64,000 nt of DNA from the human T2T-CHM13v2.0 reference genome, Homo sapiens, in the NCBI RefSeq assembly GCF_009914755.1, contig NC_060925.1, one strand, 5' to 3'. The notes below the pieces were generated by a model. It was given only the letters and a program-made list of their open reading frames with translations, was not told the origin of the DNA and made no database searches. A program made the translations under genes and the position numbers. Shown here one piece after another: positions 12,600 to 29,444 of the stretch. Every line of letters begins with the position of its first letter. The first letter of the stretch is position 1.

Positions 12600-12713
12600 G
12601 GGGCAGTAATCTTTATTTCGTCATTTTTGAAACATAGAAGCCGTAACGGAAGCAAGTGAAATGCTCAGTCTTAGACGACTGCGTCGTGCTATGACCGGAC
12701 TTTTTCTTGAAAG
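12600..12713 (+). other. C1orf162: C1orf162 non-coding first exon / promoter (start approximate)
   Basis: Local CpG cluster, ETS core CGGAAG near 12647, donor AAG|gtaaat at 12713/12714. Confidence 0.65.
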
Positions 12714-14711
12714 GTAAATGCATTTACCACATGCTTTTAATCTAGATTAAATAATCACTCACCAAAAGAAAGTGTCGTCTAATTGTTAGTGGTTTCTATC
12801 ACTTGTTTTCTTTGATGCAGGAAGGGTTGTATTTGAATGGTTCTATTAAGTTGATGGATTTTACGCTATCAGTAAGATTCTCCAGTGCTGGATGAAACGT
12901 GAAAAAGTATATATAGCACCGCTTCTATTTTAATTTATGCTTCTGCCAACTGTTTGGGTTGTGCTGAAAGGGAAATATATTTCCTGCTTTTCTTGGCCTG
13001 GATTTGTGAGTAGCTATTTCCCTGTGGTATTGTACGATGATTTTGTCCATTTATGTGAAAGTTAGGGTGGGGTGGCCTAATGTTTTCACAGCGGCTATGG
13101 TAACATTTTTGTAAATTCAGAACTGCTACTGTGAATTTCAGGATTTTACAGAAACCTATGATCCTATCTTCTTCCACCTCTCCAGTGGCAAAGCCTAGTG
13201 TAAGCTCATACTCTGTTTAGCACCAGCATATATTTCAATATTTTAAAAATATTATGTCAATATTTTATGATGGTCTGCAAAGAGCACCACTGACTTACAA
13301 GTTAGAAAAGGAGCAAAAAGTGTGAGAAAAATTACCACTGCCGATTCTGCTGCGGACTGTGGGCCTCCTATTCTCATGGCTCAGATTCCTCAACACATTT
13401 TCCCGTTGGCCCTTTTCTTATCTGACATTGCATGATCTAAAAATGTTTGGTGAATTGTAAGGTACTTGGTAATGTTGTTGTTGCTGCTATTGTAACAGGT
13501 ACAGGGCGATGAGGTGTCCTTCTCCCAACCCTCCCACAGGTCCAAGGACTTGGAAGTTAACTTTTGAGAGCTGAACAATAAAACAATAAATAATTGATGA
13601 CATTTGTTTAAAGAAATGACCTTAAAATATAGAAGAAATAACAAAGCCAAAACATTTTCCCATGAGTTTGCCTAAATACAAAGTAAAATTTTGGCCTCCT
13701 AAAAAAAAAAATCAGGGATGCATACAATGTTTTATGCACAAAAATATCTCTTTCATTGTTATTGATTTAAATAAAAATGGAAACAATTCTATCAGTAAGT
13801 GGGGAATTTGTTAAGCAAGTTATAGTACATAGCTATAATGGAAAGACCTATCACCACTAAAAAATGTTATAAAAAGTTTTTAGTGACATAGAAGAATGTG
13901 TATGGCAAAATGCTGAGTGTAAAAGGAAGATATAACCTCTTATAAAAAGAAATATCTCAAGTAGCTTTTTAAAAAATGCATGGAAGTCTGACTAAAAGGA
14001 AAGACACTAAAAACATTAATGAGTAGTAGGAGTTTGGGTGATTTCACTTTCCTGCCTTTAGATATTTTATACATTTTGATATAAAGCCTAAACAAGAATA
14101 TTGGCAAACTTGAGAAGATAATACGTGAACAGATTAGAAGTGTCTAATGAGGTCTAGAGTAAGGGTCTCCAAGAGCAAGTTTGTCAAAGTTTATGTAGCA
14201 ATGCCAGGGAAGAGTAAGATTGATACATCAGACCCAGTTGGCAGTCAATATAAAAATCATCCATTCATCTTCTCTCATACTTACTTCAGTTCAGTGCTTA
14301 CCAAGCAAATTTATGATTTTCATTGGCATTCTTATATGTTCCCCTGATAGGCAAAATTCACTGATTGCACCAACATGTACCTAATGTTATTTCGGCTTAT
14401 ACATCAGTCTCCTGTGAGTTGGTTGGTGGGAATCAGTTCTGGAGAAATCAGTCATTTCTTGGTGCCCTGATAAGATCAAATTTCTGGACCTGCAAACCTG
14501 AAGGCTGGCTGCTGAGCTGCAGAAACAACACCAGAATTGTTAACCACTGATGAGTGATCTGTGACCACTGATGGCACTAGAACACCCACAAATTGCCTCT
14601 CATTGTTACTACTCTTATATGACAATCACAGTCTCAGAGCTGGCCCTTAAGCCGGCTCTCCCTTCCAAGCTTTCTAAGAGATACCTTGTTTTATTCTCAG
14701 GGGATGACAGC

Positions 14712-14748
14712 ATGGGAGGCAATGGCTCCACATGTAAACCCGACACTG
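14712..14748 (+). CDS. C1orf162: C1orf162 coding exon 1 (MGGNGSTCKPDT); exon begins at 14701
   Basis: Acceptor ttattctcag|14701, ATG in agcATGg, donor G|gtgagt, ends phase 1. Confidence 0.9.
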
Positions 14749-15480
14749 GTGAGTTTACGACAGGAATAATTACCTGCCTCACGTCTGAGTTAAAATAACT
14801 AGAAATTGTGCTGAAGGGCTGTAATGGAAAGGCACTAGCTAGTGCATTTCTGAAACTGGAAGAATCCAATTTTACCAGGACACAGAATTTAATGCCAGGA
14901 GGGGTGAAAGGGGGAACCACAGAGACCTGCCTGGCCCTCCAAATCTGAGTAAAGGGTGTCTCTGCTCAATATCAAACTAGGTGGGTCCTGCTCCCCTATT
15001 TGTGGTGTAGGCATTGGGAAAACCACTGTGGCTGTTTTTGGCTAGGCACTGCTAATAGCTGCTCTGCAAAAAGGGCAAACATAAAAGGGCAGCAGTTTCA
15101 AGGTCAAATTCCCCAAGGACTTTGGGAAGCATTTGTTGTTTCTCCCTAGCTGGGAGATGCTTTCCTTAGGCCAGAGGGAGCATATCTCTTCAGGAGTTCC
15201 TATTAAAATCTTTGAGGAGAGCAACATATGAGATTTTTTTTTTTAATCAAAGGAACACTAGGCTTGTATTTCATGTATGTAGTTGATTTTTAAGTTCTAT
15301 TTTTCATTTAAAAGTACTTGGAATCTAAAAAACAATGTTCTCTCATTTTTGTAAGAGTTGCAGCCCCATCCTTAATTTCCACTGGTTGCTTGGGTAGAAT
15401 GGGGCACCTGGGGAAACTTAAGCTGGAAGGGTATCATGAAAAGTGACAGATACACTAATTCCTTTTGTGTTTTCTTGTAG

Positions 15481-15550
15481 AAAGACAAGGCACTCTCTCC
15501 ACAGCAGCCCCAACAACTAGCCCTGCACCCTGTCTCTCTAACCACCACAA
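15481..15550 (+). CDS. C1orf162: C1orf162 coding exon 2, S/T/P-rich stalk (ERQGTLSTAAPTTSPAPCLSNHHN)
   Basis: tttcttgtag| acceptor, |gtaaat donor, 70 nt, phase 1-2, frame continuous. Confidence 0.9.
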
Positions 15551-16016
15551 GTAAATGAGCATTCTCCTATCTGTTTCATCTTGTACCACGTGGGATTTGA
15601 TGTTGTGCTGACAGCCTCGGCTTGGGGATTTGGGCAGGGAGACTGGGGAGAAAGGACTAGAAACAGTAAAAGAACAAAGTCAGTTTGTGATCTCAGGAGT
15701 ATGGCTCTTAATTTGGCATCCCCTAAGCTTCAAGAGATCCATGGATCCCCTAAGCTTATAGGTAAAATTTGCTGGGTGGGGAATTATGAACATTGTGTGG
15801 GTTGAGGGAGGGGGAGAGGAAGAGGCCACAGCTTCCTCTGAGGCCTCAAATGGATGTGAAACTCAAAAGCAAAAGCTGAAAACCACTGGGTGAAAGTTCA
15901 TTAATCAGTGTGAAAACCATTTCAGGAGTCCATCCATAGGCAGGAAAGGTTTCACTCTTTAGGAAAGGCCTTCAAAAGCCCAACAGTTCATCCCCTGCCT
16001 TTCTTTGCCAAAACAG

Positions 16017-16111
16017 CAAAAAACATTTAATCCTTGCCTTTTGTGCTGGGGTTCTACTGACACTGCTGCTGATAGCCTTTATCTTCCTCATCATAAAGAG
16101 CTACAGAAAAT
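16017..16111 (+). CDS. C1orf162: C1orf162 coding exon 3, transmembrane (KKHLILAFCAGVLLTLLLIAFIFLIIKSYRK)
   Basis: aaacag| acceptor, |gtaagt donor, 95 nt, phase 2-1; hydrophobic helix followed by basic residues. Confidence 0.92.
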
Positions 16112-16407
16112 GTAAGTGGTCTCCAAGGGATAGGACAGCCCTTCTCTCTCTGCCATTGATACTAGAATTAGCTATGAGTGAGTAATGGGAGGAGGTAGGG
16201 GAGGGTGCAGTGTGATAAAACCTGCTTAGCCCACCCTGTCTGCAGACTGAAGATTCAAATCCCTTCATTTTTCTTCCGCCCTGACCCCACCCACCTGCCA
16301 ACACCTCCTCCCCACCCCACCCTTCACCCAAGATCGAAGGGAGAGGCTTCCCATTTCCCCAGGCCCATTGCTGAGATGGGTCCCTCTTCTTTCTGGCACC
16401 ATGGCAG

Positions 16408-16457
16408 ATCACTCCAAGCCCCAGGCCCCAGATCCTCACTCAGATCCTCCAGCCAAG
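16408..16457 (+). CDS. C1orf162: C1orf162 coding exon 4 (YHSKPQAPDPHSDPPAK); alternative acceptor at 16333 adds 25 aa
   Basis: ggcag| acceptor, AAG|gtaaga donor, phase 1-0. Confidence 0.88.
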
Positions 16458-16664
16458 GTAAGATGACCACACTGTTTTGGGGACACTGAAGGGCTACCGT
16501 CATTGGAATTCCCCTCCATACTCTTCATTATCTGCTAGAATGGTGGTATTGATTTCCAGACACTGGGCAAGTGATTCTTTGACCAAAGTGCTCAGGTTGC
16601 TTCTAAAGAGCAACCTTTTGCTCCAGACTGGACTCACTCATTCCTCCTTTTTCTCCCTCTGCAG

Positions 16665-16805
16665 CTTTCATCCATCCCAGGGGAATCACTTACCTATGCC
16701 AGCACAACTTTCAAACTCTCAGAAGAAAAGAGCAATCACTTGGCTGAGAACCATTCTGCAGACTTTGACCCCATTGTCTATGCTCAAATTAAAGTAACAA
16801 ACTAA
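16665..16805 (+). CDS. C1orf162: C1orf162 last coding exon (LSSIPGESLTYASTTF...DPIVYAQIKVTN*)
   Basis: ctccctctgcag| acceptor; TAA at 16803-16805; spliced CDS 37+70+95+50+141=393 nt, 130 aa. Confidence 0.92.
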   Translation, partial: LSSIPGESLTYASTTFKLSEEKSNHLAENHSADFDPIVYAQIKVTN

Positions 16806-17173
16806 CTCAGCTTTTCCAATGAGGCTTGAATCCATTTCCTCTCATCTCAGCCCTATCTTCACACATCACTTTCACTTTTTTACAAATTTTGGACCACCAC
16901 CTGTGTGAAACTGCAGTCGGAGTTGTTTAGATGTGATCTGGCAATGCTATCCAGCATCTTTGGAGACCAATGGTCAGTCTTTTCCTGGCCAGAGGAAAGA
17001 TTGATGGCCCTCCCACTTGAACTGACAGCCTGTGAGCCCCTTGGGGGCATAGACTGCCTTCCTTGGACCCTTCCAAAGTGTGTGGTACAGAGCTCAGTGC
17101 ACAGAGTATTCACCCAGCATCATGAATCAACTTGGGAGGAGTCAACCAAATGAACAATCTACCAAAAATTTCA

Positions 17174-17179
17174 AATAAA
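17174..17179 (+). terminator. C1orf162: C1orf162 polyadenylation signal
   Basis: AATAAA ~370 nt after the stop, followed by a U/GU-rich element (ttattatttgtttgtctgtt). Confidence 0.8.
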
Positions 17180-17749
17180 GTCAAACCCCCCACAGTGCTG
17201 CCTCCATCTTTATTATTTGTTTGTCTGTTCCTGCCACCTTCTCCAGAGGTCAAGATTAAAAGTCCAGAGCTCATTCACAGCCAAAAACACCACCAAAGGT
17301 GATGGCACTTGGAAACAAGCTCAGATTTGATTGGGGTGCAGGTACCAAACTCTGCCACTAACTAGCAGCATTCATTTAGGCAAACTTGTTAAACTTTTCA
17401 AGCCTGAAGTCTTTCATCTTGAAAACAGAGATAACACTTACCACTAATATTTAGTGTGAAGATTAAATGAAATATCTTATACATAAACATTCTATACATC
17501 CAAGAGCTCTACACAAACACAAGGTCCCTACTGTATAAAGCACTATGCAAATGGAGATTTCTACCTCCATCCTATAGCATAAGAGGTATGCATAACAACA
17601 TTATATGAGAACCAAAGATAAAGATTAAACATTAATTCCCCCAAAATCCCAATGAATAATCACATATAAAAATCCCATTAAAAATATCATCAGATGAGTT
17701 CCCAAAGGTGAACAACAACAAAATATCAATAAGATTATTTTTCACCGGG

Positions 17750-19310
17750 CAGGCTTACTCTAAATTTCCTATGTAAACCATAAACAAGACAGCAAATCCA
17801 GAAAAATGTATAAAAATAAATAATTAAAGTTATATGGGAAGGCTAGCCCTAGTAGCTAACTAAAAGTACTTGTTTTATTAAGCATCACTAATTAAAGCAA
17901 TATGTTAATGGTACCTGAATAAATAAATCAATTGAATAGAATTTAAAGACCAGAAATACATCAAAATATATAAGGAAATTTAGAGTATGATGAAGATGGC
18001 ATATGAAATCATTTGGGAGAAATTGGTTTATTCAATAAGTGGTAGCAAGATAACTAGATAACCATGTAAATGAAAATAAAGTAGGATCCATATTTCACTT
18101 CTTATATGAAAATAAATCCCAGATGTGAAAAATTTAACAGTAAAAAAAATCATAAAAGCACTAGAAGAAAATATGGGAGAATTTTTAAAAATATTTTTGT
18201 AGAGCATGCCTTTGAATGTATGTCACAAATCCCAGAAACCAGAAAAGATTAACTTGACTTCTAAAGTACAATTAAAAGTCCAAAGTACCATTAAAAAGTC
18301 AAAAGGCAAATGACAAGCTTAGAAAACACTTGCAAAGCATCTTATAGATATATAAAGATCATTTGTAAATCAACAGGGGAAAAAATGAACAACTCAATAG
18401 AAAGGACAAGGGATAGGGGTGGGCAATTTGTAGGAAAGAATATATAAATGGCTCAAATATATGAAAAGATACTCGACTTCACTCATAATAAGGGAAATAA
18501 TGATTACAACTAAAATTACATAATTTTTTCTATCAGTAAGACTGGCAAAATTCAAAAAGTTTGCTACCTGTGTGGGCAAGACTTGGGGGGAACCAAGACA
18601 CACATACACTACTGGTGGGAGAGCACGTTGGTACAGCTACCACAGAAGACCATTTGGCAATAGCCAACAACATTCTAAATTCTTTTCTAAGAATTTATAA
18701 ATAATCCTATTTCTAAGGATTTATCCTACTCAAATACATGGAAAATTGCCTACGTAACTTGAACTGCAGCAGTAATCAAATTGGCTAGAACTTACTGAGG
18801 CTTATTACACTTTTAGTACGATTCTAAGTGCGTGGCATGTATTCGTGGAATCCTCACAGAACACTGTGAGGTACAATTATTACTCATTTTAGATACAGAA
18901 ATGGAGGCACAGAGAGGTTAAGTAACTTGCCCAAGTTCACATTGCTAGTAGTAGTGGCACCGGAACTCAACCCTGGGTAGGCTGGCTCCAGAGTTTGCAT
19001 GTTTATACATTATGCTCAATTCTCTGAAACAGCAAAAGATCGAGAAAATCTTCATTGTACATGGAGAGGAGACTGGTTCATTGAGTGCAATGTAGCCATT
19101 AAAAAGAATGAGGCAGCTCTATATGTTCTAATAAAAACAGATATCTATGATATATTGCAAGCTGTTGAACAGAATTATGAATATGCTCTACTCACATGTA
19201 GTAGAGTATATGTGTATCTATATATTTAGTATACCTCTGGAAGAAAACACAATGAATGGTCTTGGTGATGGCCTCTGGGGAGGGGAAATTGCTACCTGTG
19301 GGACTGAGGA
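17750..19310 (+). mobile_element. Old L1 (L1ME-like) 3' region with MIR insert (~18780-18995)
   Basis: ttattcaataagtggtagc, aaatatatgaaaagatactcgacttcactcataata; MIR core gaggcacagagaggttaagtaacttgcccaag. Confidence 0.7.
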
Positions 19311-19772
19311 TCCCTAAACATATAGATATAAATAAGAGGACTGAGCAGACAGAAACCAAAATATCATCTTTATTATGAACATGGTCAACATTGGAGAATA
19401 GAGCTTATACTACAGCTGCAAAGAAGTTCAGAATACTGAACTCCACTACTGAGTTATAAGCTGCACCAGAGCAAGCCCACCCGTCCCAACAAGCAATGCA
19501 GTTGTTCAACCTTCCCCTAAGGAGTTGCAGAAGAGCTCATGTGCTCTTTCAAATCTGCACCCAAAAGAGTAAAAGAGGAAGAGGAAGAAAGAAAGTATGT
19601 ATGCCCAGTTCCTATTCCCAGTCTGCCATGTCAGATAGCCCCCTCTACCTCCCATGGTGGGGGGTCACTGAGGAGTGTTGCCTTAATGGAGCTCAGTCTA
19701 CACCAAAGGAAGCAGGAGTGGGAGAGAAGCATCCACCACAGATCTTTCAAAAATACATTAAATAATATTTTG

Positions 19773-20070
19773 GGGTCTGGGTGTAGTGTCTCTTGCCTGT
19801 AATTCCAGTCCTTTGGGAGGCCAAGGCAGAAAGATTGCTTGAGCCCCAAAATTTGAGACCAGTCTGGGCAACATAGGGAGATCCCACCTTTACAAAAAAT
19901 AAAATAACTAGCCAGGCATGGTGGTGCATGCCTGTGGTCCCAGCTACTTGGGAGGGTGAGGTGGGAGGATTACTTGAGCCCAGGAGGTTGAGCCTGCAGT
20001 GAGCCAAGATTACACCACTGTACTCCAGCCTGGGTGGCAGAATGAGACTCTGTCTTAATAATAATAATTC
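19773..20070 (+). mobile_element. Alu (AluJ-type)
   Basis: gattgcttgagccc...ggcaacataggg dimer with (TAA)n tail. Confidence 0.9.
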
Positions 20071-20366
20071 TTATTATTATTTGCAAAATCAAGTTAAGAA
20101 AATTGAAGTCCAAGGAGATGAAATAATTTACTCAATGACATCTGGCTAAAAATAAATGGCAGAACAAAAATTTAAATCAAGTCCTCTGACTTCAAATTCC
20201 TTGCATCTGGCCTCCACATCAAGCCGCCCCACAGCACTTATGGTGTCAAGGAGACGAGAAAGGCAAAGAGTCAGGTGACGTGATCCAGACAGCATGTTCT
20301 TTCTGAGAGAGAGCAACTGCTCCTGGAAGTTGGATTTTGAGGGAGAAGCCAGTGGAAGACAGTTTG

Positions 20367-20401
<35 letters not shown>

Positions 20402-22051
20402 AGTCTCTCTGTGGGAGTGAACAGGTCTAGAAGAAAAACAGGTTTAAGGGAGATAATTCAGTGAGGTGGCCACAGCACCACCAGGGCAGCCACCCCACGA
20501 GGGCAGCAGAGACCCAGGAATGGCCTTCTCCCGTTCGCTGACTGTAGGAAGTGCACACAGGGAGGCCTCTTGAGCTTTCAGCTGTTCCCAAACTTGGGGC
20601 TGACATCAAACAATTCTGCCATCCCTGAAGCTAGAGGCCATATCAGCTTTCCAGTTCAGGGCCAGCACCTTATAAACATCGCTACAAGAGTAGAGTAAGC
20701 ACTGTCACTTGGCTAGCACTGTCACTTGGCTATCTACTTGTACAAGAAATATCAAATTAATTGCTCTTTCCTGTTTTCTTGAAGCTGCCCATTTTTTTTT
20801 TTAATGGTATAGCCCTAAACAGCGTCTTGTTTTTTGTCTTCACATTATGCAGCCAGCCTTGCTGGAGGATAAAATGAGTAATTAAATGATTGACCCCAAA
20901 TTCAAAGATCTTTGCTAGGTAAGAGCAGAACAAAGCTCTTGAATCCTGGATCATGGAATCAGAACAAACCTACAGGGAAATGGTTCTCCAGACATCGTGA
21001 ATGTAAATCTTCCAAGACATCTGTAGATGTCTTCATCTGCTGCGGAAGGTCTATGTCTGCTATCTCGCCTTGTAGAATGGAATGTCCTAACTGAACCCAA
21101 ACTGTATTGCTATTTGCAGAACTGGTGGGTTAATGATCCCATTTGTTTAAATTCAATACAGGGCCACAGGGGAGGAATTGGGGCTGTTTTGTGGCTAAGG
21201 GAAAAGAGAGCACTTTTGATGTTGTTTGATCTGAGCCTCTGGCAAGGAGGTGGGTTGTACAGAAACACAGAGGTGTGGTGTCCACACCCTCATCCCTTCC
21301 CATCAGGCCGTTGAGTAGCTTTGAATTCCCTACCTTTGGGGAATTAGGACTTAGGGTGGAAGCTGAAGGAAGTGTGTTCATGAACGATTTTGTGGGAGTC
21401 TGGATCTAAACACACAGGACATGTGCAGAATTATTTCAACAAACAACCTCCCTGTTCCAACTCTGCTCAGACCAGAAGGCCACTTGAGTATCCTGAGGAC
21501 TGAGGCTGGCCAGCACACCCATTAGAAGAGATCGTAACACAATGAAAAGCAGGCTTGTGATGACGGCAGCACAGACAGTGAGTGGGAGGCCCTGAGAATT
21601 CCCAGAAATAGCAGGAGAGACCCTATATGGGGAGAGAGGGTGTAGATATGCAGGTGGGAGCTAAGAGTGTTGGTAATTCTGGCATGAATGGCAATATAAC
21701 CTCATTCACACCCATGGCTGTGATGTCTTGTTCTTGATTTGTATTTCCTGATTTGAATGAATATTTCACTTAAGTTATCACACCTTGGTTTCTCATTGAT
21801 CAAAAGCAGCATCCCTTTAGTCAGGTGGAAGTTTCCCATTAAGGATGAGAGGAATGGCCTTTTCACCAAAAGAATCTGAGAACCACTGATTTAGTCTATC
21901 TCCCTTTCTTTGGGTTGGGCAGCATTTGATACCAATTCAGAAATGAGTTAGAACGTTATTCTTTGAAAGAAACTTTTCCAGAAATATTTTTACAGTGATA
22001 CCCTAGAAGAAGTTACTCATACCTTGGAGTTCATTCAACACTGGCTAGGAA

Positions 22052-22057
22052 TTTATT
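22052..22057 (-). terminator. TMIGD3: TMIGD3 polyadenylation signal
   Basis: Plus-strand TTTATT (minus AATAAA) ~310 nt past the stop codon. Confidence 0.75.
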
Positions 22058-22368
22058 GGCTAACAAAATACAAGTGATTTCCTGGTCCCCAATCCAGATT
22101 CTCCACCTCTTCTTCACTTCTGACTGATGGAATGCATAAGAACTAAGATCTTGAGATGTTATTTGAGGGCAGCCTTGCTTGGGTGTGGTCTATCATAGCT
22201 CCTCTGACTACTGCCGTTGCTACCTGGCTGCAAATGATTGTTGTCAAGGATAGAGGGACCTTCAGAATTCCTGGGAGATCAGAATCAGTCTCTGAGGTGT
22301 GGGCCAGTTGTCATGGTGATTATTCTGTTGTAGCATCACTTTATGAACTAAATTAAAAAAATCTTCAG

Positions 22369-22439
22369 TCACATCTGTTCAGTAGGAGCCATTTCCTTTG
22401 GAGTCAGGACACGCGAGAAGGGCTTCAAAGTGTTGCCTA
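22369..22439 (-). CDS. TMIGD3: TMIGD3 last coding exon (VGNTLKPFSRVLTPKEMAPTEQM*)
   Basis: Minus-strand caaag| acceptor, TGA at 22371-22369, frame continuous with the TM exon. Confidence 0.85.
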
Positions 22440-23745
22440 CTTTGTTGGGGAATAGAAAGGGAAAATGGAGTTGAGATCTATTGCCTACCCCTGAAGAGTG
22501 TTTCTGCAGCAAAAGTTCCAAACTCTGTCATGGGGCTTTCATGGGGACTAAACACAAGTTTATTTTCAGGGCTGAGATCAGATATCATTACTGCAAAGCC
22601 CATCAGTAGGAAAGTCAATAAGAAGGCTTGGTACACAGGGCTTGCATTCACCTCTGTGAACACAGCTGAACTTCTTCAGAGCCCAAGAATGTCAAAGCTA
22701 GGAGCCTTGGTTCAGGCTGCCACATTTCATCTGCCTGAGTTTGAGGAAGCAGGCCATGGCTACAACAGGCTGTACAACTTCTTGCTAAAAAGAAGTAGCG
22801 TTGAGTTCTACTGCCTCATCTTTCATAGTATCATGTGCCTTTCCTTAAGAGCACTGACTCCTGGTGGCAATGTTACATTTGGGTGTTGATGTGTGATGTG
22901 TGATAGTTTGTCTTCCTCCCCCTCTACAAGTTCCATGGACACAGATGGCATTTATTTTGCCCATCTTTGTATCCCCAGCATCTAGCTAGCATGGTCCTTT
23001 TTTGTTGAACTAATGAATAAAAATATTGGGGAGTATGAGAATGAGACCCTCAATTTATAGAAAAGGAAACAGGCCCAGAAAAGTATAAAGTTTCCCAAGG
23101 TCACACCTTAAAAAAGTGACAATGGTTTTAGCAAAAACCTAGACTACAATTGTGTCCAGAAGGGCTGGTCTTGGGCAGACCTGAGAAAGCCATTGTCTTG
23201 TCCACATGCCCCACCTTCACAGTTCCCAAGGCTGCTAGAGGACAAAAGGTCAAGAATGCTGTGGGAGCCACTACTTTGCTTTTTTTAGGGCTCCTATTCT
23301 GACCACAGGAACAAAATATCCCAGGGAAAGTATGAGGCCTTGAAGCCTTTGCTTTGCATTTCAGATTCTTCTGGCTATGGATCCTGGTGTATCACTAGCA
23401 AGGGTTACTAGGAGTGTTTTTCTGTCTTTTTCTGAAATATTGTTCTTCTACATTTCCATACCCAAGGGAGGTTGCAGTCTGTTTTTAATTATGCCTACAG
23501 ACTCTTCATTGCCTAAGGTGTTCCTGTGATTTCTGAGCATAAAAAGAAAAATGCAAAACTACTATTAGCCAAACAGTGGCAACTGTGCAATGTTCTTTCT
23601 GCTCTGTGTACACTTCAGAGGTTGGCATATTTGCCACATGCTGGAGGATTCTCTGAACAGTAAGACCAGCCTTGTCTTACTGACCAGTCATGTCTCTGAT
23701 GCTGCCCTAAAGGGAAAGGTGGGCACACAGTCCCTTCTCTATTTA

Positions 23746-24040
<295 letters not shown>

Positions 24041-24421
24041 TATATGAAAAAGGAGACTCTTCTATACCTGCTTACCCAGCGGTCCCAGAAGCTCATTCCT
24101 TCGACAGGAGCCCGAAGTTTGTGTGCTGGGGAGGTAGGTGGCTCTGCAGATGGGAACCTGGTGTGGTTGTCTCAGGACCTCCTTCCTTCCTGACCTACAC
24201 ATGTATCCACTTAAGAAAGCTCCAGTGCTCCCTCTGTCACTTCTCGTGATGCCTTGTCACCATCAAGCAGATATCTACCCCAGCCCATGGCTGGCTGCAT
24301 TGGTCTCCAGGTGACCAGGCAATATGAAGAGGCTCTCATTCACTCATTTGAAATCTGCTCCTTGACCTCTTTCATTTTCTCTAATTCTTGCCCACCCCCT
24401 CCCTCAACAATAGCTACTTAC

Positions 24422-24522
24422 CCCTTCTATTCCTTTGACTTCTCCTCCTTTTGGTCAAATGACTGATTACAGAGATGATTCCCAAACCCGTGATCAGTAT
24501 GCAAATGATGAGAATGGACGTC
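24422..24522 (-). CDS. TMIGD3: TMIGD3 transmembrane exon (RTSILIICILITGLGIISVISHLTKRRRSQRNRR)
   Basis: ccttctag| acceptor, G|gtaagt donor, 101 nt, phase 2-1. Confidence 0.9.
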
Positions 24523-25267
24523 CTAGAAGGAACCACAGCAGATTTCATGTTGCTTGGAAGAAACTGCCTATTGATTCTCAGCTCTGGATCCCTTTTTCTG
24601 GGATTTGCACCCCTGCCCACCCCCCAACCCAGTTACAGTAGCTTCTGGGAACCGTATTCCTTTAGAGTGACCCTGTCCTTTGGACCACCCTCGATGGGAC
24701 CTGCTGAGCATCTGACTAAGCTGGGCCAATGAACCCCTTCCTCAGAAATTAACTGTGGATTGGGAATAGGAGAATCCAGTCTCAGACTGGCCAGTCTCTT
24801 GAATGGGGGAGAAATAAACTTAGGAACCATAAATGGATGACTATTAGGGGAAAAAAGAGAAATATACAAGGGCAATACAGAGACAGAAGGAAGGAAACAC
24901 ACAGATTCGAAGCAGATTAGAGACTGAGGTAAATTCGTGATGATGTTCCTGACAATTTCCAAGGGTGGCCACATCCCTGCTCCTGCATTTGAAACACCTC
25001 TCTCTCCTTATGATAAATGTCCCCTTTTAATTAAAATAGCTAGAGGGCTTTTTTGCTGCTTGCAACCAAGAGTCCTAAACTGTATTTTTTTTTTTTTTTT
25101 GAGGAAACCAAATACTCAGATTAAGGATACATAGTTAAGGTGGAGAAATAATGTGCAGTAGAAAAGTTGTCGGTGCAAATCAACTGTCATATCATACTGC
25201 TGCCACCCCAGCCCCTACCTCCACCCCACCGCCCCAAGCCCATTCATCCGCCGAGACTATGACTCAC

Positions 25268-25334
25268 CTGGAGCGGTCAGCCTTGCGGACAACTTTGGGA
25301 GCCTTGCAGCTTCTGGTTTTGTTGCCTGATAGGT
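25268..25334 (-). CDS. TMIGD3: TMIGD3 stalk exon (DLSGNKTRSCKAPKVVRKADRS)
   Basis: attcag| acceptor, AG|gtgagt donor, 67 nt, phase 1-2. Confidence 0.88.
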
Positions 25335-26486
25335 CTGAATCAGAAAGGATTTGTTAAGTCAGGTGAGGCCCATAGCCAGGTCCTGCCTCTGCCTCCCAGC
25401 TGCAGCTCTGCCTGTCATTCTATGTCCAGAGAGTGAGTCCCCTGGTTGACTCCAGAGTAAAGCAGAGGTACCACGCGCAGTTGTATAAATGTGCCCTGCA
25501 CAGGGAACAAGGCTGAGGGGACAAGCAGGGGCCGACATTTAGCCCACACTCTGCTTGCCAGGCCATGCACCCTACCACTGGACTCCATGCACCTGAAGGA
25601 AGGGGCCCCTTTTCCAGATTTGAACAAAGGCCCCACGTAGACTAGAAGTGGCCCATAGTTACAGTCCTAAACTGAGGTCTCCTCCCCATAGGAGGGGATG
25701 CCAGAGGCACAAGAGGGCCAATCCTATCCTTAAAGAACTGCTCATTTGGTGATGTAATTGCCATGTTTTTCTTATGACAGCCACCAAAACCCAACGGGAG
25801 CAGTGGCACCACGACCACCTACGATACCCCCTCTGATAAGACGTGGGAGAGGTCTGTGTTTCATTTAAACTAAGGAGTACGTTCAGGTGGGAACGTTCTC
25901 TTGTCTGAGCCTAAGATTCAGGTCAAGTTGCACAGTTAAGTAAAAGCAGAACAACACAAAGTAGAAACACTGTGGGTGTGAACGATGTTACATTCCGTAG
26001 GATGCTTGCTGAATCAATCACTAGCTAGTCAAGTGTTAGCAAAACTCTCTTTCTAGCATGGGGACAGGTTTCCAAGGGCACCCCTTAAGCCCTTCTGGTT
26101 TGTTTTCCTACCAGCATTGTGCTCTGGACTGTGATAGAAAAGGACATCCTTTCTAGAAATGGAAACAACAAGAAGGCACAGGGGAAAGAGAAAAAAAAAA
26201 AGGAAGAAAGAAAGGCTAGCGCCTTCCATAAGTCCTCTGTCTGAGAGACAGAGGTTTTCTGGTGCAAAAGGAGATTTTCATCATTCAACAGAAGGAACCT
26301 GAGTGAACATCTGGAAATCCTATGTCTTAGCTCCAGCCAAGAGTTGTAATTTGTTAACTCGACTTTTCTGCTATGGGTTCCAGTTCCACCCACACCTTCC
26401 CTGTGGTCTCCAAATATAAACTGCACATTCCTTAAAAGCAAAATAGGGTGCTTACTAGTTGGACCATGAAATTTATATCTGTAAAT

Positions 26487-26785
26487 TATTATTATTATTT
26501 TTTGAGACAGGGTCTTATTCTGTCATCCAGGCTGAAGTGCAGTGGTGCAATCACGGCTCACTGCAGCCTCAACCTCCCTGGACTCAGATGATCCTCCCTT
26601 CTCAGCCTCCTGAGTAGCTGGGACTACAGGCAGGCACCACCACATCCAGCTAATTTTTGTATTTTTTGTAGGGATGGGCTTTCTCCATGTTGCCCAGGCT
26701 GGTCTTAAACTCCTGGGCTCTAGCAATCCACCCACCTCAGCCTCCCAAAGTGCTGGGATTACAGGAGTGAGCCACCGCACCTGGC
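26487..26785 (-). mobile_element. Alu (AluJ-type)
   Basis: tttgagacagggtctt...gtgagccaccgcacctggc, full antisense dimer. Confidence 0.93.
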
Positions 26786-26908
26786 TACCTCCGTATACTA
26801 TTAAATTATTTAAGTTGACAGTTACCAGGCACGTGGGTCATTTTTTGCAGCCTCAGACACCTCTCAAGAATCTAATCTTCAAGATTCTAGACCGACAAGG
26901 CACACAGA

Positions 26909-27013
26909 CTTTTTTTTTTTTTGAGACTGAGTCTCACTCTATCGCCCAGGCAGGAGTGCAGTGGCGCAATCTCGGCTCACTGCAACCTCTGCCGCCTGGT
27001 TCAAGCGATTCTC
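26909..27013 (-). mobile_element. Alu 3' fragment
   Basis: poly(T) then gagactgagtctcactct...ttcaagcgattctc. Confidence 0.88.
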
Positions 27014-27358
27014 ACACAGACATTTAATAACAACTTCAAAGCCTTTCAACATAAAGATCTCACATCTATTAGACCCTGTCAGCCTCTTCTAAGGTCCTTA
27101 AACCAGATTGCTGTAAGGGAAGAGAAGTTCTAAAAGTGCCCCAGGGCGCAGACACCCTCCTTGTCCCCAACTTCCAGCTATTCCCCAGCACTGTTAATGA
27201 CCACCCTATGTTTGCCGGAGGAAGAGAGAGGCCAGGCAGGCCCAAAGTACCCAGTGGGAGTCTGAGTTGGGGCTCACTGGCTTCAGAGAGTGCTCTCTTA
27301 GCAGCAAACACCCATGGCTGTGGGTTACATCCAGCCATACCCCAGGCAGGCTCCTTAC

Positions 27359-27706
27359 CTTTCCCAGACCAAAAGTCATTGGCCAGGGTTCCTTTGTCGT
27401 CAGTTACAATCAGCTCTGTAAAATCCATGTCATCCCTGGCAAAGTCCCGCTGGATGCCACACCAGTACCAGCCCGTGTCCTCTTTGGTCAGGCAGGACAT
27501 AGTGACAATGAGCTGGTTCCCTGTGTCCCTCAGGGCCACATGATTGGTGCTGTTAGGGGAGAAGGCGATGATGTTGCAGTAGTCACGGAAATAGCCTCGG
27601 CACCAGTATTTGGGGTGATTCTTGTAGTGGGCATTGTAGTTGCAGATGGCAGAAGCCGTGTCCAGCACAAAGCTTCTCTTGACCTTTTCATCCATGACCA
27701 TGGCAT
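27359..27706 (-). CDS. TMIGD3: TMIGD3 IgV exon, CD300/pIgR-type (DAMVMDEK...ICNY...KYWCRGYFRDYC...DTGWYWCG...FWSGK)
   Basis: V-set Cys/Trp/D-x-G-x-Y-x-C motifs plus the extra WC...C pair; ttttcacag| acceptor, G|gtaagg donor; 348 nt, phase 1-1. Confidence 0.95.
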
Positions 27707-27714
27707 CTGTGAAA

Positions 27715-27750
27715 ACACACACACACACGCACACGTGCACACACACACAC
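27715..27750. repeat. (CA)n/(TG)n microsatellite abutting the TMIGD3 Ig exon acceptor
   Basis: acacacacacacacgcacacgtgcacacacacacac. Confidence 0.95.
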
Positions 27751-27845
27751 CATTGTTCTCTCAAAACATTGCAGCTCCTGCCCTCCTGAAGGATAATTAA
27801 TTAAAGAATCGGAGGCTGATTTTTGCCTCTTTTTGATTGGCAACT

Positions 27846-28225
27846 ATTATGGGCTGAACTATGTCCCCTTCAAAACTCATATGTTTCAGTCCTAACCTCC
27901 AGTGACCCCAGAATGTGACTGTATTTGGATATAAGGCCTTTAAAGAGATAATTAAGTTAACATAGGGTCATTGGGGTAGTCCTTAATTCAATTCAGCTGA
28001 TGTCCTTATAAAAAGGAGAGATTAAGACACTGACAATACAAACAGAGGAATGGCCCATGAGGACACAGCCAGAAGGCAATCATCTGCAAACCGAGAGATG
28101 GCCTCAGAATGAAACCAAACTTGCCAAATGCCTCGATCTTGAACTTACCACCTTCATAACATAAGGAAATAAATTTCCATTGTTTCAGCCGCCCAGACTG
28201 TGGTTTTGTTGCTGTTGTTGTTATC
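27846..28225 (+). mobile_element. MaLR LTR (MLT1A-C-like)
   Basis: tatgggctgaactatgtcccc start, cagaatgtgactgtatttgga, cagccctagcaaactaata end. Confidence 0.85.
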
Positions 28226-28998
28226 ACAGCCCTAGCAAACTAATAAAGCAACTCTGGAGAAGTCTTTTTCCCTGGCCTAAGGGTGGGTGAAATATGGAGG
28301 CCTCCTACCATTGCTTGACGGAGGGCCTTGAAGAGCCTGAGGCTTACCGTTAGGAGGCCCTCTGTCCCTAGCTCCCACCCTACCTTAGCACCCTCAGAAA
28401 GAAAGTGATGTTTGGAGGCTTCTGCTGGCTGCACAGGGCTGAAAACAGAGGAAGTCATGTTCTGTCTTTAGGGGATAAGAACTTCATGTTCCCTCCGTAC
28501 AAGACCAGCATAGGCACCTCTATCATCTCAGGATATTGCACAATGAGGAAGTCACGCACACCATGTCCAGCTTGACCATGGCAGGGAAAGTGTCTGACCA
28601 AGAAGAGGAGATGAGACAGCAGAGCCCATTCTTCTCTCAGCCTTCCAGAAGTATAGCAAAAACCACTAAAATGCAGGCTCAGGTTCTTTATAACATTTTG
28701 TTTTCGTAACAACCCCACAAGGAAGATAGCATGATCTTCAGTTTATAAGTATGAATGCTGACCCAGAGAAAGGTTCAGCAACTCTAAATGCCACACAACT
28801 GAAGGTCAGACAGAGCTGGGAAAAGGCCAGTGTTCCAAGTCTCATCTTTGGGGTCAAGCACAAGTGGAAAGGGGAAAGTCGTGTCCTCATATATGTGCAC
28901 ATATATTTTTGAGGGGAGAAGGGGGAAGGGGGAACCTGGGTAAACTAAAAGAAAATACAGAGCTCTCGTTTTATTTTATTCCAGTGGAGATGCTGGGG

Positions 28999-29105
28999 AA
29001 AAATATGGAATGCGTAATGAATTTGCATGTCATCCTTGCACAAGGGCCATGCTAATCTACTCTGTATCATTCTAATTTCAGTATATGTGCTGCCAAAGTG
29101 AGTGC
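28999..29105 (-). pseudogene. U6 snRNA processed pseudogene, full length
   Basis: Reverse complement gcactcactttggcagcacatatactgaaattagaatgatacagagtagattagcatggcccttgtgcaaggatgacatgcaaattc...ttccatattttt aligns to U6 end to end with CpG-type decay. Confidence 0.95.
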
Positions 29106-29337
29106 AGAGTCATCATTTTAGTCAAGCTTTTCAATTTCCTCACAAACTCTCTTATCTGAGCTAAGAACAAGAACTAATATGGACAAGACCTATTTTCATC
29201 GCCTTTTATTTTCCCATCCCACTCCTTAGATGGTTCGAGTTAATAAGCAAGGACTCCAAGTAGGTGAGGACTTCAGTGCAAAGTCTCTGGAAAGGCCACA
29301 GCTTAAAGGGCTGGAGCTGTTCCGTCCCCCATCCTAC

Positions 29338-29444
29338 CTGAAATGAGAGCCAAGGAGAGTAGAATGAAGAGCCACATGACTGGAAGGAAGCAAACTTTCA
29401 ACTGGAATGATAGAATGCACCCAGGGAGCCCAGGAATTCTGAAT
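29338..29444 (-). CDS. TMIGD3: TMIGD3 signal-peptide exon (FRIPGLPGCILSFQLKVCFLPV-MWLFILLSLALIS); internal ATG at 29377
   Basis: aaacag| acceptor, CAG|gtagga donor, 107 nt, phase 2-1. In frame with ADORA3 exon 1: 350+107+348+67+101+71=1044 nt, 347 aa. Confidence 0.88.

What the first reader, a model, noticed from the sequence alone, without database searches (positions are those of the whole stretch)
14701..29444. C1orf162 and TMIGD3 look like complementary halves of a CD300-type receptor (candidate split receptor / inhibitory adaptor pair)
Seen: the two convergent genes share a stalk/TM exon layout. Stalk exons are 70 vs 67 nt, both phase 1-2; TM exons are 95 vs 101 nt, both phase 2-1. TMIGD3 has a signal peptide and IgV domain, but its tail has no tyrosine and its TM has no Lys/Arg/Asp. 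C1orf162 has no signal peptide or folded ectodomain but has two tail tyrosine motifs (LTYAST, IVYAQI). Both have a Cys early in the TM and a Cys in the stalk. Established: CD300-family receptors signal through tail ITIMs or through a charged TM residue that binds DAP12/FcRgamma; TMIGD3 has neither. Inference: both descend from a CD300-like gene with reciprocal domain loss, and C1orf162 could act in trans as an ITIM adaptor for TMIGD3 or other motif-less receptors.
Basis: partly seen in the sequence, partly recalled or inferred. Interest (0 to 1): 0.8.

Follow-up and report, generated by a model that had tools for sequence, protein, structure and literature searches.

The report
C1orf162: an Ig-less CD300-type adaptor
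C1orf162 looks like a small inhibitory signalling adaptor of myeloid cells whose gene is built like the stalk, membrane and tail part of CD300 immune receptors, but nothing shows that it is the missing half of its neighbour TMIGD3.

Summary
The layout is not peculiar to these two genes. A phase 1->2 stalk exon followed by a phase 2->1 transmembrane (TM) exon occurs in CD300A, CD300C, CD300LG, CD300LF and, by ab initio boundaries, PIGR. It occurs in none of 6 other single-pass genes (LST1, TRAT1, SCIMP, LAT, TMEM154, MYCT1).

C1orf162 belongs to a family of 66 detectable homologues, none with an Ig domain. Members share a short Ser/Thr/Pro-rich N-terminus, an AxxxG TM motif and two conserved tail tyrosines. 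The C-terminal IVYAQI is a canonical ITIM. Human LTYAST is a degenerate copy of an ancestral ITIM.

A family profile matches the TM plus tail of CD300A/CD300LF (hhalign 91%, above all controls) and weakly matches Pfam SIT. It does not match TMIGD3's TM or tail (0.1%).

My reading is that C1orf162 is an uncharacterised ITIM-bearing transmembrane adaptor built on a CD300-type module. TMIGD3 is a complete, motif-less CD300/pIgR-type receptor. A shared CD300-like origin is moderately supported. The "complementary halves / trans adaptor pair" idea has no support, and mouse expression argues against an obligate pair.

The parts
14712..14748 (+). C1orf162 first coding exon. It is leader-like in size and phase (37 nt, 0->1) but hydrophilic (MGGNGSTCKPDTE), so it is not a signal peptide. 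The phase-1 intron after it is where the IgV exon sits in CD300 genes.
   Evidence: CD300C and CD300LG leader exons are 61 and 43 nt, 0->1. G2 is conserved in 26 of 26 rows.
15481..15550 (+). C1orf162 stalk exon, 70 nt, phase 1->2. It is Ser/Thr/Pro-rich and holds the partly conserved stalk Cys (C30).
   Evidence: C30 in 17 of 26 rows.
16017..16111 (+). C1orf162 TM exon, 95 nt, phase 2->1. It holds a near-invariant AxxxG (A43, G47) and a basic stop-transfer stretch. It is the same length and phases as the CD300A TM exon.
   Evidence: More K+R on the C-terminal side in 43 of 45 members.
16408..16457 (+). C1orf162 short cytoplasmic exon, 50 nt, phase 1->0. An alternative acceptor at 16333 adds 25 residues and gives the 155-aa isoform. 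It corresponds in position to the 38, 53 and 23 nt 1->0 exons of CD300A, CD300LG and CD300LF.
16665..16805 (+). C1orf162 last coding exon, phase 0. It holds both tyrosine motifs: LTYAST (16689-16706; degenerate in human, canonical ITIM in distant homologues) and IVYAQI (16773-16790; canonical ITIM).
29338..29444 (-). TMIGD3 exon T2. In the short isoform it holds the start codon and signal peptide (MWLFILLSLALISD). In isoform 1 it is read in frame after ADORA3 exon 1. It ends in phase 1.
   Evidence: PMC5133659 (passages).
27359..27706 (-). TMIGD3 IgV exon, 348 nt, phase 1->1. The domain is pIgR/CD300-type, with the KYWCRG and WYWCG motifs.
   Evidence: pIgR E 4e-22; CD300LF, CD300A and CD300C about 5e-9 to 7e-8; V-set 24.4 bits, below the cut-off of 26.
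25268..25334 (-). TMIGD3 stalk exon, 67 nt, phase 1->2, with a Cys.
24422..24522 (-). TMIGD3 TM exon, 101 nt, phase 2->1. There is no charged residue in the TM, and an Arg/Lys-rich stretch follows it.
22369..22439 (-). TMIGD3 last coding part, 71 nt, phase 1->stop. It sits at the position of the 1->0 short exon of CD300 genes but runs into a stop. It has no Tyr, and no ITIM-like relic was found downstream.

Best explanation
C1orf162 encodes a small single-pass membrane protein with no signal peptide, the N-terminus outside and the C-terminus in the cytoplasm. It has about 39 extracellular residues rich in Ser, Thr and Pro, usually with one Cys. The TM helix has a near-invariant AxxxG. The cytoplasmic tail has two conserved tyrosine motifs.

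I read it as an inhibitory transmembrane adaptor of myeloid cells. Inferred mechanism: Src-family kinases phosphorylate the tail tyrosines. The C-terminal (I/V)VYAQ(I/V) ITIM, and in most species the proximal (L/I/V)(T/S)YA(S/T)(M/L)xF motif, then recruit SH2 phosphatases or Csk to the membrane, as LST1/A and SIT1 do.

Its gene is built exon for exon like the stalk-TM-tail part of inhibitory CD300 receptors: leader-size exon 0->1, stalk 1->2, TM 2->1, short exon 1->0, ITIM exon in phase 0. Its family profile also resembles the CD300A/CD300LF TM plus tail. The most likely origin is therefore a CD300/pIgR-type receptor gene without its IgV exon. Because the only CD300/pIgR-type gene on this chromosome arm (TMIGD3) lies tail to tail 5 kb away, an old local duplication is plausible.

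TMIGD3 is a complete receptor of that type, with leader, IgV, stalk, TM and a short basic tail that stops in the 1->0 exon. It is not a half.

Shown here: the anatomy, phases, conservation, profile similarity and absence of an Ig domain. Inferred: topology, phosphorylation, SH2 recruitment and evolutionary origin.
For: (1) Gene structure
- Spliced translations of CD300A, CD300C and CD300LG reproduce the database proteins exactly.
- They give stalk 154/127/85 nt (1->2), TM 95/-/113 nt (2->1), short exon 38/-/53 nt (1->0), then phase-0 ITIM exons. CD300C ends in its TM exon.
- CD300LF: TM 113 nt 2->1, short exon 23 nt 1->0, then phase 0.
- PIGR: TM exon 122 nt 2->1, ab initio.
- C1orf162 reads 70 (1->2), 95 (2->1), 50 (1->0), then phase 0.
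- Controls: LST1 has a 93 nt TM exon 1->1. TRAT1 is 1->1. SCIMP and LAT have the ATG and the TM in one exon. TMEM154 is 1->1, and MYCT1 has a phase-1 intron before the TM.
- A phase-2 intron before the TM: 6 of 6 pIgR/CD300-type genes against 0 of 6 controls.

(2) Sequence
- hhalign of a 50-sequence C1orf162 family against 10 CD300A/CD300LF TM-plus-tail sequences gives probability 91.1%, E 1e-6, score 44.5 over 67 columns. TM aligns with TM and the first ITIM aligns in register.
- Reversed alignments score 25.
- 0 of 150 block-wise column shuffles reach 44.5 (max 31.2).
- 0 of 150 shuffles that keep the TM and shuffle the tail reach 44.5 (max 41.2).
- Against single sequences: Myotis CLM-1 74%, CD300A 66%, LST1 8.7%, CD300C 1%, CD300LG 0.3%, TMIGD3 0.1%.
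- Pfam SIT (PF15330) matches the CD300A tail at 50.4 bits. It is hit by 22 of 45 C1orf162-family members at E<=0.1, and one (P0186) passes the cut-off at 28.3 bits.
- A CD300A/LF-tail HMM run over 788 six-frame pieces of window 14000-29500 ranks the C1orf162 last exon first and its TM exon second.

(3) Family
- 66 homologues at E<=1e-3 among 1.84 billion representatives; 64 are 58-226 aa.
- Distant members keep the MGxxxS start, the Cys, the LAFFSGVLLTLL TM and a canonical (I/V)(T/S)YA(T/S)LxF ITIM.
- Y123 is present in 25 of 26 rows and Y95 in 22 of 26.
- K+R is higher on the C-terminal side in 43 of 45 members.

(4) Context
- Protein Atlas feature neighbours of a distant member are C1orf162 clusters (0.96), LST1 (0.90), SIT1 (0.86), GAPT and SCIMP.
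Against: - The sequence link is weak. Human-like C1orf162 (P0006) scores only 13.8 bits against Pfam SIT, where the cut-off is 27.6.
- Myc_target_1, a match to the TM only, is hit by as many members as SIT: 22 of 45.
- About 34 of the 44.5 hhalign score comes from the TM plus juxtamembrane stretch alone, and Leu-rich TM helices align easily.
- The CD300A/LF-tail HMM hits on the window have E 0.24 and 1.3.
- ITIMs are short and arise convergently.
- The phase comparison rests on 6 plus 6 genes. The controls were chosen because a Pfam model let me find them. The PIGR and CD300LF boundaries, and all control boundaries, are read from splice sites and frames, not from transcripts.
- No Ig-bearing intermediate, no Ig relic and no human paralogue were found.
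- The taxa of the distant homologues are unknown, because that library carries no names.
- The conserved MGxxxS start fits the N-myristoylation consensus (recalled), which sits badly with an extracellular N-terminus.
- No biochemical data exist. Phosphorylation and SH2 binding are inferred.
Confidence: 0.5

Rival explanations
1. Independent adaptor, with coincidental or generic resemblance. C1orf162 is a lineage of leukocyte transmembrane adaptors unrelated by descent to CD300 or TMIGD3. The phase-2 intron before the TM and the 95-nt TM exon are chance. The profile similarity reflects Leu-rich TM helices plus convergent ITIMs. The function would still be inhibitory signalling.
For: - No pairwise similarity to TMIGD3.
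- Pfam hits to SIT are no more frequent than TM-only hits to Myc_target_1: 22 of 45 each.
- The post-TM phases (1, then 0) and an ITIM about 10 residues into a phase-0 exon also occur in LST1.
- All 66 homologues lack an Ig domain.
- The nearest Atlas neighbours are LST1 and SIT1, not CD300.
Against: - The phase-2 pre-TM intron separates 6 of 6 pIgR/CD300-type genes from 0 of 6 controls, and C1orf162 falls with the former.
- The hhalign score exceeds 150 of 150 shuffles of both kinds. It is much higher for CD300A/LF than for LST1.
- The gene lies next to one of the few CD300/pIgR-type IgV genes in the genome: only 10 exon matches genome-wide, on chr17, at PIGR and at TMIGD3.
Confidence: 0.3
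2. C1orf162 and TMIGD3 are reciprocal remnants of one CD300-like gene and work together. TMIGD3 binds ligand, and C1orf162 associates with it in trans (stalk disulfide or TM packing) and supplies the ITIMs.
For: - Both genes have the CD300-type stalk/TM layout and lie tail to tail.
- TMIGD3 lacks any tail Tyr or TM charge.
- Both have a stalk Cys.
- The C1orf162 TM has a near-invariant AxxxG helix-packing motif.
- Both transcripts appear in differential-expression gene lists from human iPSC-derived microglia (bioRxiv 10.1101/2025.02.13.638162, gene-list passages).
Against: - TMIGD3 keeps its own stalk, TM and tail exons, so nothing is 'split'.
- No similarity between the two TM or tail regions (hhalign 0.1%).
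- No charged TM residues of the kind used by known receptor-adaptor pairs.
- The C1orf162 TM Cys is not conserved: 8 of 26.
- Mouse Tmigd3 is testis- and spermatid-enriched (PMC11166886, passages), while the mouse C1orf162 orthologue is myeloid plus marginal-zone B cells (PMC3844401, passages).
- Human TMIGD3 signal in macrophages or microglia may come from isoform 1, which is driven by the ADORA3 promoter (PMC5133659, passages).
- Motif-less relatives exist that need no adaptor: the CD300LG and PIGR TM exons have no charge.
Confidence: 0.07
3. Not a signalling adaptor. The conserved tyrosines are YxxPhi sorting signals (YAQI, YASM) that direct endocytosis or lysosomal targeting of a small mucin-like membrane protein, or the protein has another topology.
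For: - YAQI fits Yxx-hydrophobic (recalled consensus).
- The proximal motif has drifted from L to M or T at +3 in eutherians, as if SH2 binding were not under selection there.
- The MGxxxS start is conserved: G2 in 26 of 26.
Against: - The -2 position (I/V/L) that defines an ITIM, and is not needed for AP-2 binding, is conserved at both motifs: I/V in 22 of 26 at position 121 and L in 21 of 26 at position 93.
- Distant members carry the extended classical form (I/V)(T/S)YA(T/S)LxF.
- Positive-inside holds in 43 of 45 members.
Confidence: 0.1

Closest known systems
LST1/A (leukocyte-specific transcript 1), an ITIM-bearing myeloid transmembrane adaptor
   Same: No signal peptide, a short N-terminus outside, a single TM and a tail with two tyrosine motifs. 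The gene has a TM exon ending in phase 1, a short 1->0 exon (23 nt) and an ITIM about 10 residues into a phase-0 last exon. It is the nearest non-self Atlas neighbour, at 0.90. That LST1/A recruits SHP-1 and SHP-2 is recalled, not read here.
   Different: The LST1 TM exon is 1->1 with no separate stalk exon. hhalign against the C1orf162 family aligns only the 11-column ITIM (8.7%). LST1 lies at a different locus (chr6).
SIT1 (SHP2-interacting transmembrane adaptor)
   Same: A short glycosylated ectodomain with one Cys, a disulfide-linked homodimer, and an ITIM that recruits SHP2 (PMC2193021, passages). Its Pfam model PF15330 is the family hit by most C1orf162 members (22 of 45, tied with Myc_target_1; one above cut-off) and also covers the CD300A tail.
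   Different: SIT1 has a leader peptide and five tyrosine motifs, and it is lymphoid.
CD300A / CD300LF (inhibitory CD300 receptors)
   Same: The same exon series from the stalk onward, including a 95-nt 2->1 TM exon in CD300A. They give the best profile match to the C1orf162 family. They have ITIM tails.
   Different: They carry a signal peptide and an IgV domain. They lie on chr17q25. They have 3-4 tyrosine motifs spread over two phase-0 exons.
DAP12 / FcRgamma-type signalling chains paired with motif-less receptors
   Same: A small, possibly disulfide-linked membrane protein that carries the signalling tyrosines.
   Different: Those pairs rest on an Asp in the adaptor TM and a Lys or Arg in the receptor TM, and they carry ITAMs. 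Neither the C1orf162 TM nor the TMIGD3 TM has a charged residue, and the motifs are ITIMs.
pIgR and CD300LG (for TMIGD3)
   Same: The TMIGD3 IgV domain is closest to pIgR domains (E 4e-22) and then to CD300. It has the same leader/IgV/stalk/TM exon phases. There is no charged TM residue, and no canonical ITIM in the tail of TMIGD3.
   Different: TMIGD3 has one IgV domain and a 36-residue basic tail that ends in the 1->0 exon. In human it also forms a chimeric isoform with ADORA3 exon 1 (PMC5133659, passages).

Membership tests
CD300 / CMRF35-like receptors (for C1orf162) | Extracellular CD300-type IgV domain behind a signal peptide | tested here: not met
   No Pfam domain in the exons or in P0006. 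No V-set among the 25 families listed for 45 members. No Ig relic in window 1-22000; best E 0.18.
CD300 / CMRF35-like receptors (for C1orf162) | Exon layout: stalk 1->2, TM 2->1, short exon 1->0, phase-0 tail exons | tested here: met
   One search compared.
CD300 / CMRF35-like receptors (for C1orf162) | TM-plus-tail sequence similarity to inhibitory members | tested here: inconclusive
   hhalign 91%, E 1e-6, above 150 of 150 shuffles. Most of the score is TM, and HMMER-level hits are not significant.
CD300/pIgR-type receptors (for TMIGD3) | IgV domain with the extra C-C' disulfide motifs (KYWC... / ...YWCG) and similarity to pIgR and CD300 domains | tested here: met
   (pIgR 4e-22, CD300LF/A/C 5e-9 to 7e-8). 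(the only other genomic matches are the CD300 genes and PIGR).
CD300/pIgR-type receptors (for TMIGD3) | Signalling by tail ITIM or charged TM residue | tested here: not met
   no Tyr in the tail and no K/R/D/E in the TM.
Transmembrane adaptor proteins (LAT, NTAL, PAG, SIT, TRIM, LST1, SCIMP and others) | Short ectodomain, single TM, no folded domain, tail tyrosine motifs | tested here: met
Transmembrane adaptor proteins | Juxtamembrane Cys for palmitoylation (in the palmitoylated subgroup) | tested here: inconclusive
   The eutherian consensus KSYRKCHSS has one Cys after the TM. Human has Y there. There is no CxxC.
Transmembrane adaptor proteins | Inducible tyrosine phosphorylation and SH2-protein recruitment; leukocyte expression | not testable with these tools
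   Only expression is documented: the mouse orthologue is myeloid (PMC3844401, passages), and the human gene is a dendritic-cell marker in one single-cell table (PMC8523033, passage).
ITIM, (S/I/V/L)xYxx(I/V/L) | C-terminal motif IVYAQI | tested here: met
   Y in 25 of 26 rows; +3 I/V in 25 of 26; -2 I/V in 22 of 26.
ITIM, (S/I/V/L)xYxx(I/V/L) | Proximal motif LTYAST | tested here: not met
   Human +3 is T. M in 23 of 26 eutherian rows. L in 11 of 45 rows, the distant members.
Pfam SIT (PF15330) | Score at or above the gathering cut-off of 27.6 bits | tested here: not met
   P0006 scores 13.8 bits. 1 of 45 family members passes (P0186, 28.3 bits), and 22 of 45 hit at E<=0.1.
DAP12/FcRgamma-type receptor-adaptor pair (C1orf162 with TMIGD3) | Complementary charged residues in the two TM helices | tested here: not met
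   none in either TM.
DAP12/FcRgamma-type receptor-adaptor pair (C1orf162 with TMIGD3) | Physical association and co-expression | not testable with these tools
   Literature passages only. Mouse tissues differ (PMC11166886, PMC3844401). Both genes appear in human iPSC-microglia gene lists (bioRxiv 10.1101/2025.02.13.638162).

The most novel reading that the evidence does not exclude
C1orf162 is the first inhibitory counterpart of DAP12: a free-standing ITIM chain, derived from a CD300-type receptor by loss of its IgV exon. It pairs through its stalk Cys and AxxxG TM helix with motif-less CD300/pIgR-type receptors such as its neighbour TMIGD3 and gives them inhibitory signalling in myeloid cells.
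Probability: 0.07. Interest if true: 0.85.

Novelty: new member of a known kind. Interest (0 to 1): 0.45.

Why it matters
C1orf162 is a highly expressed myeloid gene that turns up in many transcriptome signatures. In the searchable literature it has no assigned function. Searches found no paper treating it as an ITIM protein or an adaptor; one paper calls the mouse protein 'otherwise uncharacterized'.

Reading it as a conserved ITIM-bearing adaptor with a CD300A/LF-like TM-tail module gives directly testable predictions: phosphorylation, SHP-1/SHP-2/SHIP/Csk binding, dimerisation, and a hyper-responsive myeloid phenotype on knockout.

It also gives a concrete example of how Ig-less adaptors may arise from receptor genes, by loss of a symmetric phase-1 Ig exon.

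The stronger claim, an inhibitory signalling chain serving motif-less receptors, would be a new principle. It is unsupported so far.

Tried and rejected
- DNA similarity between the two genes: blastn (word 7) of 12600-17300 against the reverse complement of 22000-29700 gave 34 hits. The best had E 0.11 and none paired exon with exon.
- Pairwise protein similarity: BLOSUM62 local score 25 against shuffles of 23.7 +/- 4.0. The stalk, TM and tail taken separately gave z from -0.8 to 1.2.
- Ig exon relic in or around C1orf162: tblastn of four IgV domains against window 1-22000 gave best E 0.18.
- ITIM exon relic downstream of TMIGD3: nothing above noise.
- Human paralogue of C1orf162: only its own exons, with all other hits at E>4.
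- TMIGD3 orthologues, to look for ITIM-bearing tails: the IgV-profile search listed the best 120 of 978 hits. These were almost all multi-domain pIgR/CD300 proteins. The only TMIGD3-like row (P0171) is an intron-retaining model without a TM.
- SIT1 gene structure: SIT1 was not found by PF15330 in the genome. Literature searches for its gene organisation gave nothing useful.
- Complex prediction was not run. The report does not claim binding, and isolated TM helices are a poor case for it.
- Supplementary tables of the expression papers were not opened. They may hold isoform-level or cell-type-level expression of TMIGD3 and C1orf162.

Full report
**The observation**

I spliced the annotated coding parts from the window and recomputed lengths, phases and translations.

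| Gene (strand) | Leader | IgV | Stalk | TM | Short exon | Last exon |
|---|---|---|---|---|---|---|
| C1orf162 (+) | 37 nt, 0->1 | none | 70 nt, 1->2 | 95 nt, 2->1 | 50 nt, 1->0 | 141 nt, 0->stop |
| TMIGD3 (-) | ends in phase 1 | 348 nt, 1->1 | 67 nt, 1->2 | 101 nt, 2->1 | 71 nt, 1->stop | none |

- All internal junctions are AG/GT.
- The TMIGD3 tail has no Tyr and its TM has no charged residue.
- C1orf162 starts with the hydrophilic MGGNGSTCKPDTE.
- It carries LTYAST (16689-16706) and IVYAQI (16773-16790).

**The two genes compared with each other**

- There is no DNA similarity: best blastn E is 0.11 and no hit pairs exon with exon.
- There is no protein similarity beyond composition: local score 25 against 23.7 +/- 4.0 for shuffles.
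- A profile of the C1orf162 family against the post-Ig part of TMIGD3 gives 0.1%.
- The only thing the two share directly is the exon layout.

**Is the layout CD300-type?**

The window's genome could be searched. The TMIGD3 IgV exon finds 10 exon matches genome-wide: itself, eight on chr17 (the CD300 cluster and CD300LG) and PIGR. Against solved structures it is closest to pIgR domains (E 4e-22) and then to CD300LF, CD300A and CD300C.

I obtained the human CD300A, CD300C and CD300LG proteins from the protein database and mapped them on the genome. The spliced translations equal the proteins exactly.

| Gene | Stalk | TM | Short exon | Tail exons | Basis |
|---|---|---|---|---|---|
| CD300A | 154 nt, 1->2 | 95 nt, 2->1 | 38 nt, 1->0 | two phase-0 ITIM exons | |
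| CD300C | 127 nt, 1->2 | terminal, starts in phase 2 | none | none | |
| CD300LG | 85 nt, 1->2 | 113 nt, 2->1 | 53 nt, 1->0 | phase 0 | |
| CD300LF | not mapped | 113 nt, 2->1 | 23 nt, 1->0 | phase 0 |; boundaries from frames and splice sites guided by bat orthologues |
| PIGR | not mapped | 122 nt, 2->1 | not mapped | not mapped |; found by hydropathy, boundaries ab initio |

The TMIGD3 and C1orf162 layout is therefore the layout of this receptor superfamily.

**Controls**

I located six other single-pass genes through their Pfam models and read their TM-exon boundaries.

| Control gene | Result |
|---|---|
| LST1 | 19 nt 0->1; TM 93 nt 1->1; 23 nt 1->0; ITIM exon in phase 0 |
| TRAT1 | TM exon 1->1 |
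| SCIMP | ATG and TM in one exon, ending in phase 1 |
| LAT | ATG and TM in one exon, ending in phase 1 |
| TMEM154 | ectodomain and TM in one exon, 1->1 |
| MYCT1 | phase-1 intron before the TM |

- The phases after the TM are generic. An ITIM a few residues into a phase-0 exon is also seen in LST1.
- The phase-2 intron immediately before the TM, with a separate 1->2 stalk exon, is found in 6 of 6 pIgR/CD300-type genes and 0 of 6 controls.
- C1orf162 sides with the receptors.
- The controls were chosen by availability, and their boundaries rest on frames and splice sites.
- From memory, not from a call: KIR genes are 1,1,1,0, and phase 2 is the rarest phase overall (about a fifth of introns).

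**What C1orf162 is**

A word-indexed search found 56 homologues, all eutherian, of 71-228 aa. I aligned 26 of them, those of near-canonical length; the 30 dropped were isoforms, fragments and extended models.

A HMMER profile search of 1.84 billion representatives, with no length limit, found 66 proteins at E<=1e-3.
- 64 of them are 58-226 aa.
- One (P0195, 380 aa) looks like an intron-retaining model and has no Pfam hit.
- One (P0235, 546 aa, E 7.8e-4) is a TMEM154-like repeat protein and probably spurious.
- None has room for, or shows, an Ig domain.

The distant members keep several features:
- an MG(G/S)xxS start;
- a Thr/Ser/Pro-rich N-terminus with a Cys;
- the TM LAFFSGVLLTLL;
- a tail with the classical extended ITIM (I/V)(T/S)YA(T/S)LxF, and often a second xVY(A/S)x(V/I).

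| Feature | Count |
|---|---|
| Y123 present | 25 of 26 |
| I/V at +3 of Y123 | 25 of 26 |
| Y95 present | 22 of 26 |
| M at +3 of Y95 | 23 of 26 eutherian rows |
| T at +3 of Y95 (human) | 1 of 26 |
| L at +3 of Y95 | 11 of 45 (wider set) |
| A43 | 25 of 26 |
| G47 | 26 of 26 |
| TM Cys | 8 of 26 |
| Stalk Cys | 17 of 26 |

K+R is higher on the C-terminal side of the TM in 43 of 45 members. The tail should therefore be cytoplasmic.

**Link to CD300 tails**

Pfam SIT (PF15330) matches the CD300A TM plus tail at 50.4 bits.
- Among 45 C1orf162-family members, 22 hit SIT at E<=0.1.
- One member passes the cut-off (P0186, 28.3 bits).
- The match always runs from the TM start to the first ITIM.
- However, 22 of 45 also hit Myc_target_1 through the TM alone, and the human-like protein reaches only 13.8 bits.

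hhalign compared a 50-sequence family alignment with 10 CD300A/CLM-8/CLM-1 tails. The tails were the last 135 residues, and three of these rows lack part or all of the TM. The result was 91.1%, E 1e-6, score 44.5 (a first run with another option gave 80.9%).

| Control | Result |
|---|---|
| Reversed alignments | score 25 |
| Block-wise column shuffles | mean 13.6, max 31.2; 0 of 150 reach 44.5 |
| TM kept, tail shuffled | mean 33.7, max 41.2; 0 of 150 reach 44.5 |

Most of the score is therefore TM, but the tail adds to it in register.

Against single sequences the family prefers CD300LF-like (74%) and CD300A (66%). It scores lower against LST1 (8.7%), CD300C (1%), CD300LG (0.3%) and TMIGD3 (0.1%).

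In the alignment the 1->0 short exons and the starts of the phase-0 ITIM exons of C1orf162 and CD300A correspond (one search compared).

A CD300A/LF-tail HMM ranks the C1orf162 last exon and TM exon first and second among 788 six-frame pieces of the region, though at E 0.24 and 1.3.

Atlas feature neighbours of a distant member are LST1, SIT1, GAPT and SCIMP, which are the leukocyte transmembrane adaptors. I treat this as a lead only.

**Origin**

The phase-1 intron after the leader-size first exon of C1orf162 is exactly where CD300 genes carry their symmetric 1->1 IgV exon. Loss of such an exon keeps the reading frame. Combined with the tail-to-tail position next to TMIGD3, a CD300-like origin by an old local duplication is the most economical reading.

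The evidence does not go further than that.
- There is no Ig relic.
- There is no ITIM relic beyond the TMIGD3 stop.
- There is no human paralogue.
- There is no Ig-bearing homologue.
- The first exon of C1orf162 is not a decayed signal peptide in any obvious way.
- If the event happened, it is old, and 'reciprocal loss' cannot be shown. TMIGD3 may never have had ITIM exons.

**The pair hypothesis**

- TMIGD3 is a complete receptor with its own TM and a basic tail.
- Relatives without ITIM or TM charge exist (the CD300LG and PIGR TM exons), so a missing motif does not call for an adaptor.
- Neither TM has a charged residue.
- Mouse Tmigd3 was chosen in a screen for testis-enriched, spermatid-biased genes, and its knockout males are fertile (PMC11166886, passages).
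- In human, TMIGD3 isoform 1 shares exon 1, and likely the promoter, with ADORA3 (PMC5133659, abstract and passages). This may explain why TMIGD3 appears in macrophage and microglia lists together with C1orf162 (PMC8523033 and bioRxiv 10.1101/2025.02.13.638162, table and gene-list passages).
- Five papers mention both genes, and none relates them.
- I put the pair at about 7%.

**Novelty**

- No paper in the library treats C1orf162 as an ITIM protein or an adaptor. One search found 122 papers, of which I viewed the listing of 25. One search found one unrelated paper holding both terms. One search covered the mouse gene name. In one search none of the 8 listed papers holds C1orf162.
- Papers outside the library cannot be excluded.
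- A Pfam family named C1orf162 (PF27946) exists, according to database annotations.
- This is a new member of a known kind (ITIM-bearing transmembrane adaptors), with an informative receptor-type gene structure.

Noticed in passing
window 14712-14729 (C1orf162 residues 1-6): The N-terminus MGxxxS is strongly conserved: G2 in 26 of 26 eutherian rows and 36 of 45 wider rows; S6 in 20 of 26. It fits the N-myristoylation consensus (recalled). The positive-inside rule (43 of 45) and the Ser/Thr/Pro-rich sequence put this end outside the cell. This is unexplained.
   Followed up: partly
window 16333-16457: An alternative acceptor 75 nt upstream of the 50-nt exon adds 25 residues in frame between the TM and the tail, giving the 155-aa isoform (P0005). 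Similar insertions appear in rodent models (P0046, P0049).
   Followed up: no
window 29338-29444 and 41690-42039: In TMIGD3 isoform 1, ADORA3 exon 1 (350 coding nt, ending in phase 2) is spliced to exon T2. The signal-peptide-like stretch then becomes an internal hydrophobic segment after three GPCR helices. The frame fits. The isoform is known (PMC5133659).
   Followed up: partly
L008 (G000:C17:75442179-75442439, minus strand): A CD300-type IgV exon between CD300C and the other cluster members carries an in-frame TGA. It is probably the polymorphic or pseudogenic CD300H (name recalled).
   Followed up: no
L023 (G000:C3:111550952-111551047): The Pfam SIT model hits the TRAT1 TM exon above its cut-off (32.2 bits) but did not find SIT1 itself in the genome search. 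The model is loose across transmembrane adaptors, which weakens any membership argument based on it.
   Followed up: partly
L018-L019 (CD300LF) and L029 (LST1): CD300LF and LST1 both have a 23-nt 1->0 exon between the TM exon and a phase-0 ITIM exon. The TM->1 | short 1->0 | ITIM-in-phase-0 cassette may be an old shuffled module shared by many inhibitory receptors and adaptors.
   Followed up: no
C1orf162 upstream exons (window 5202-6942, 12638-12713): One paper lists C1orf162 among genes whose tissue expression is associated with MLT1E1A LTR elements (PMC4419796, table passage). I did not look for the element in the window.
   Followed up: no
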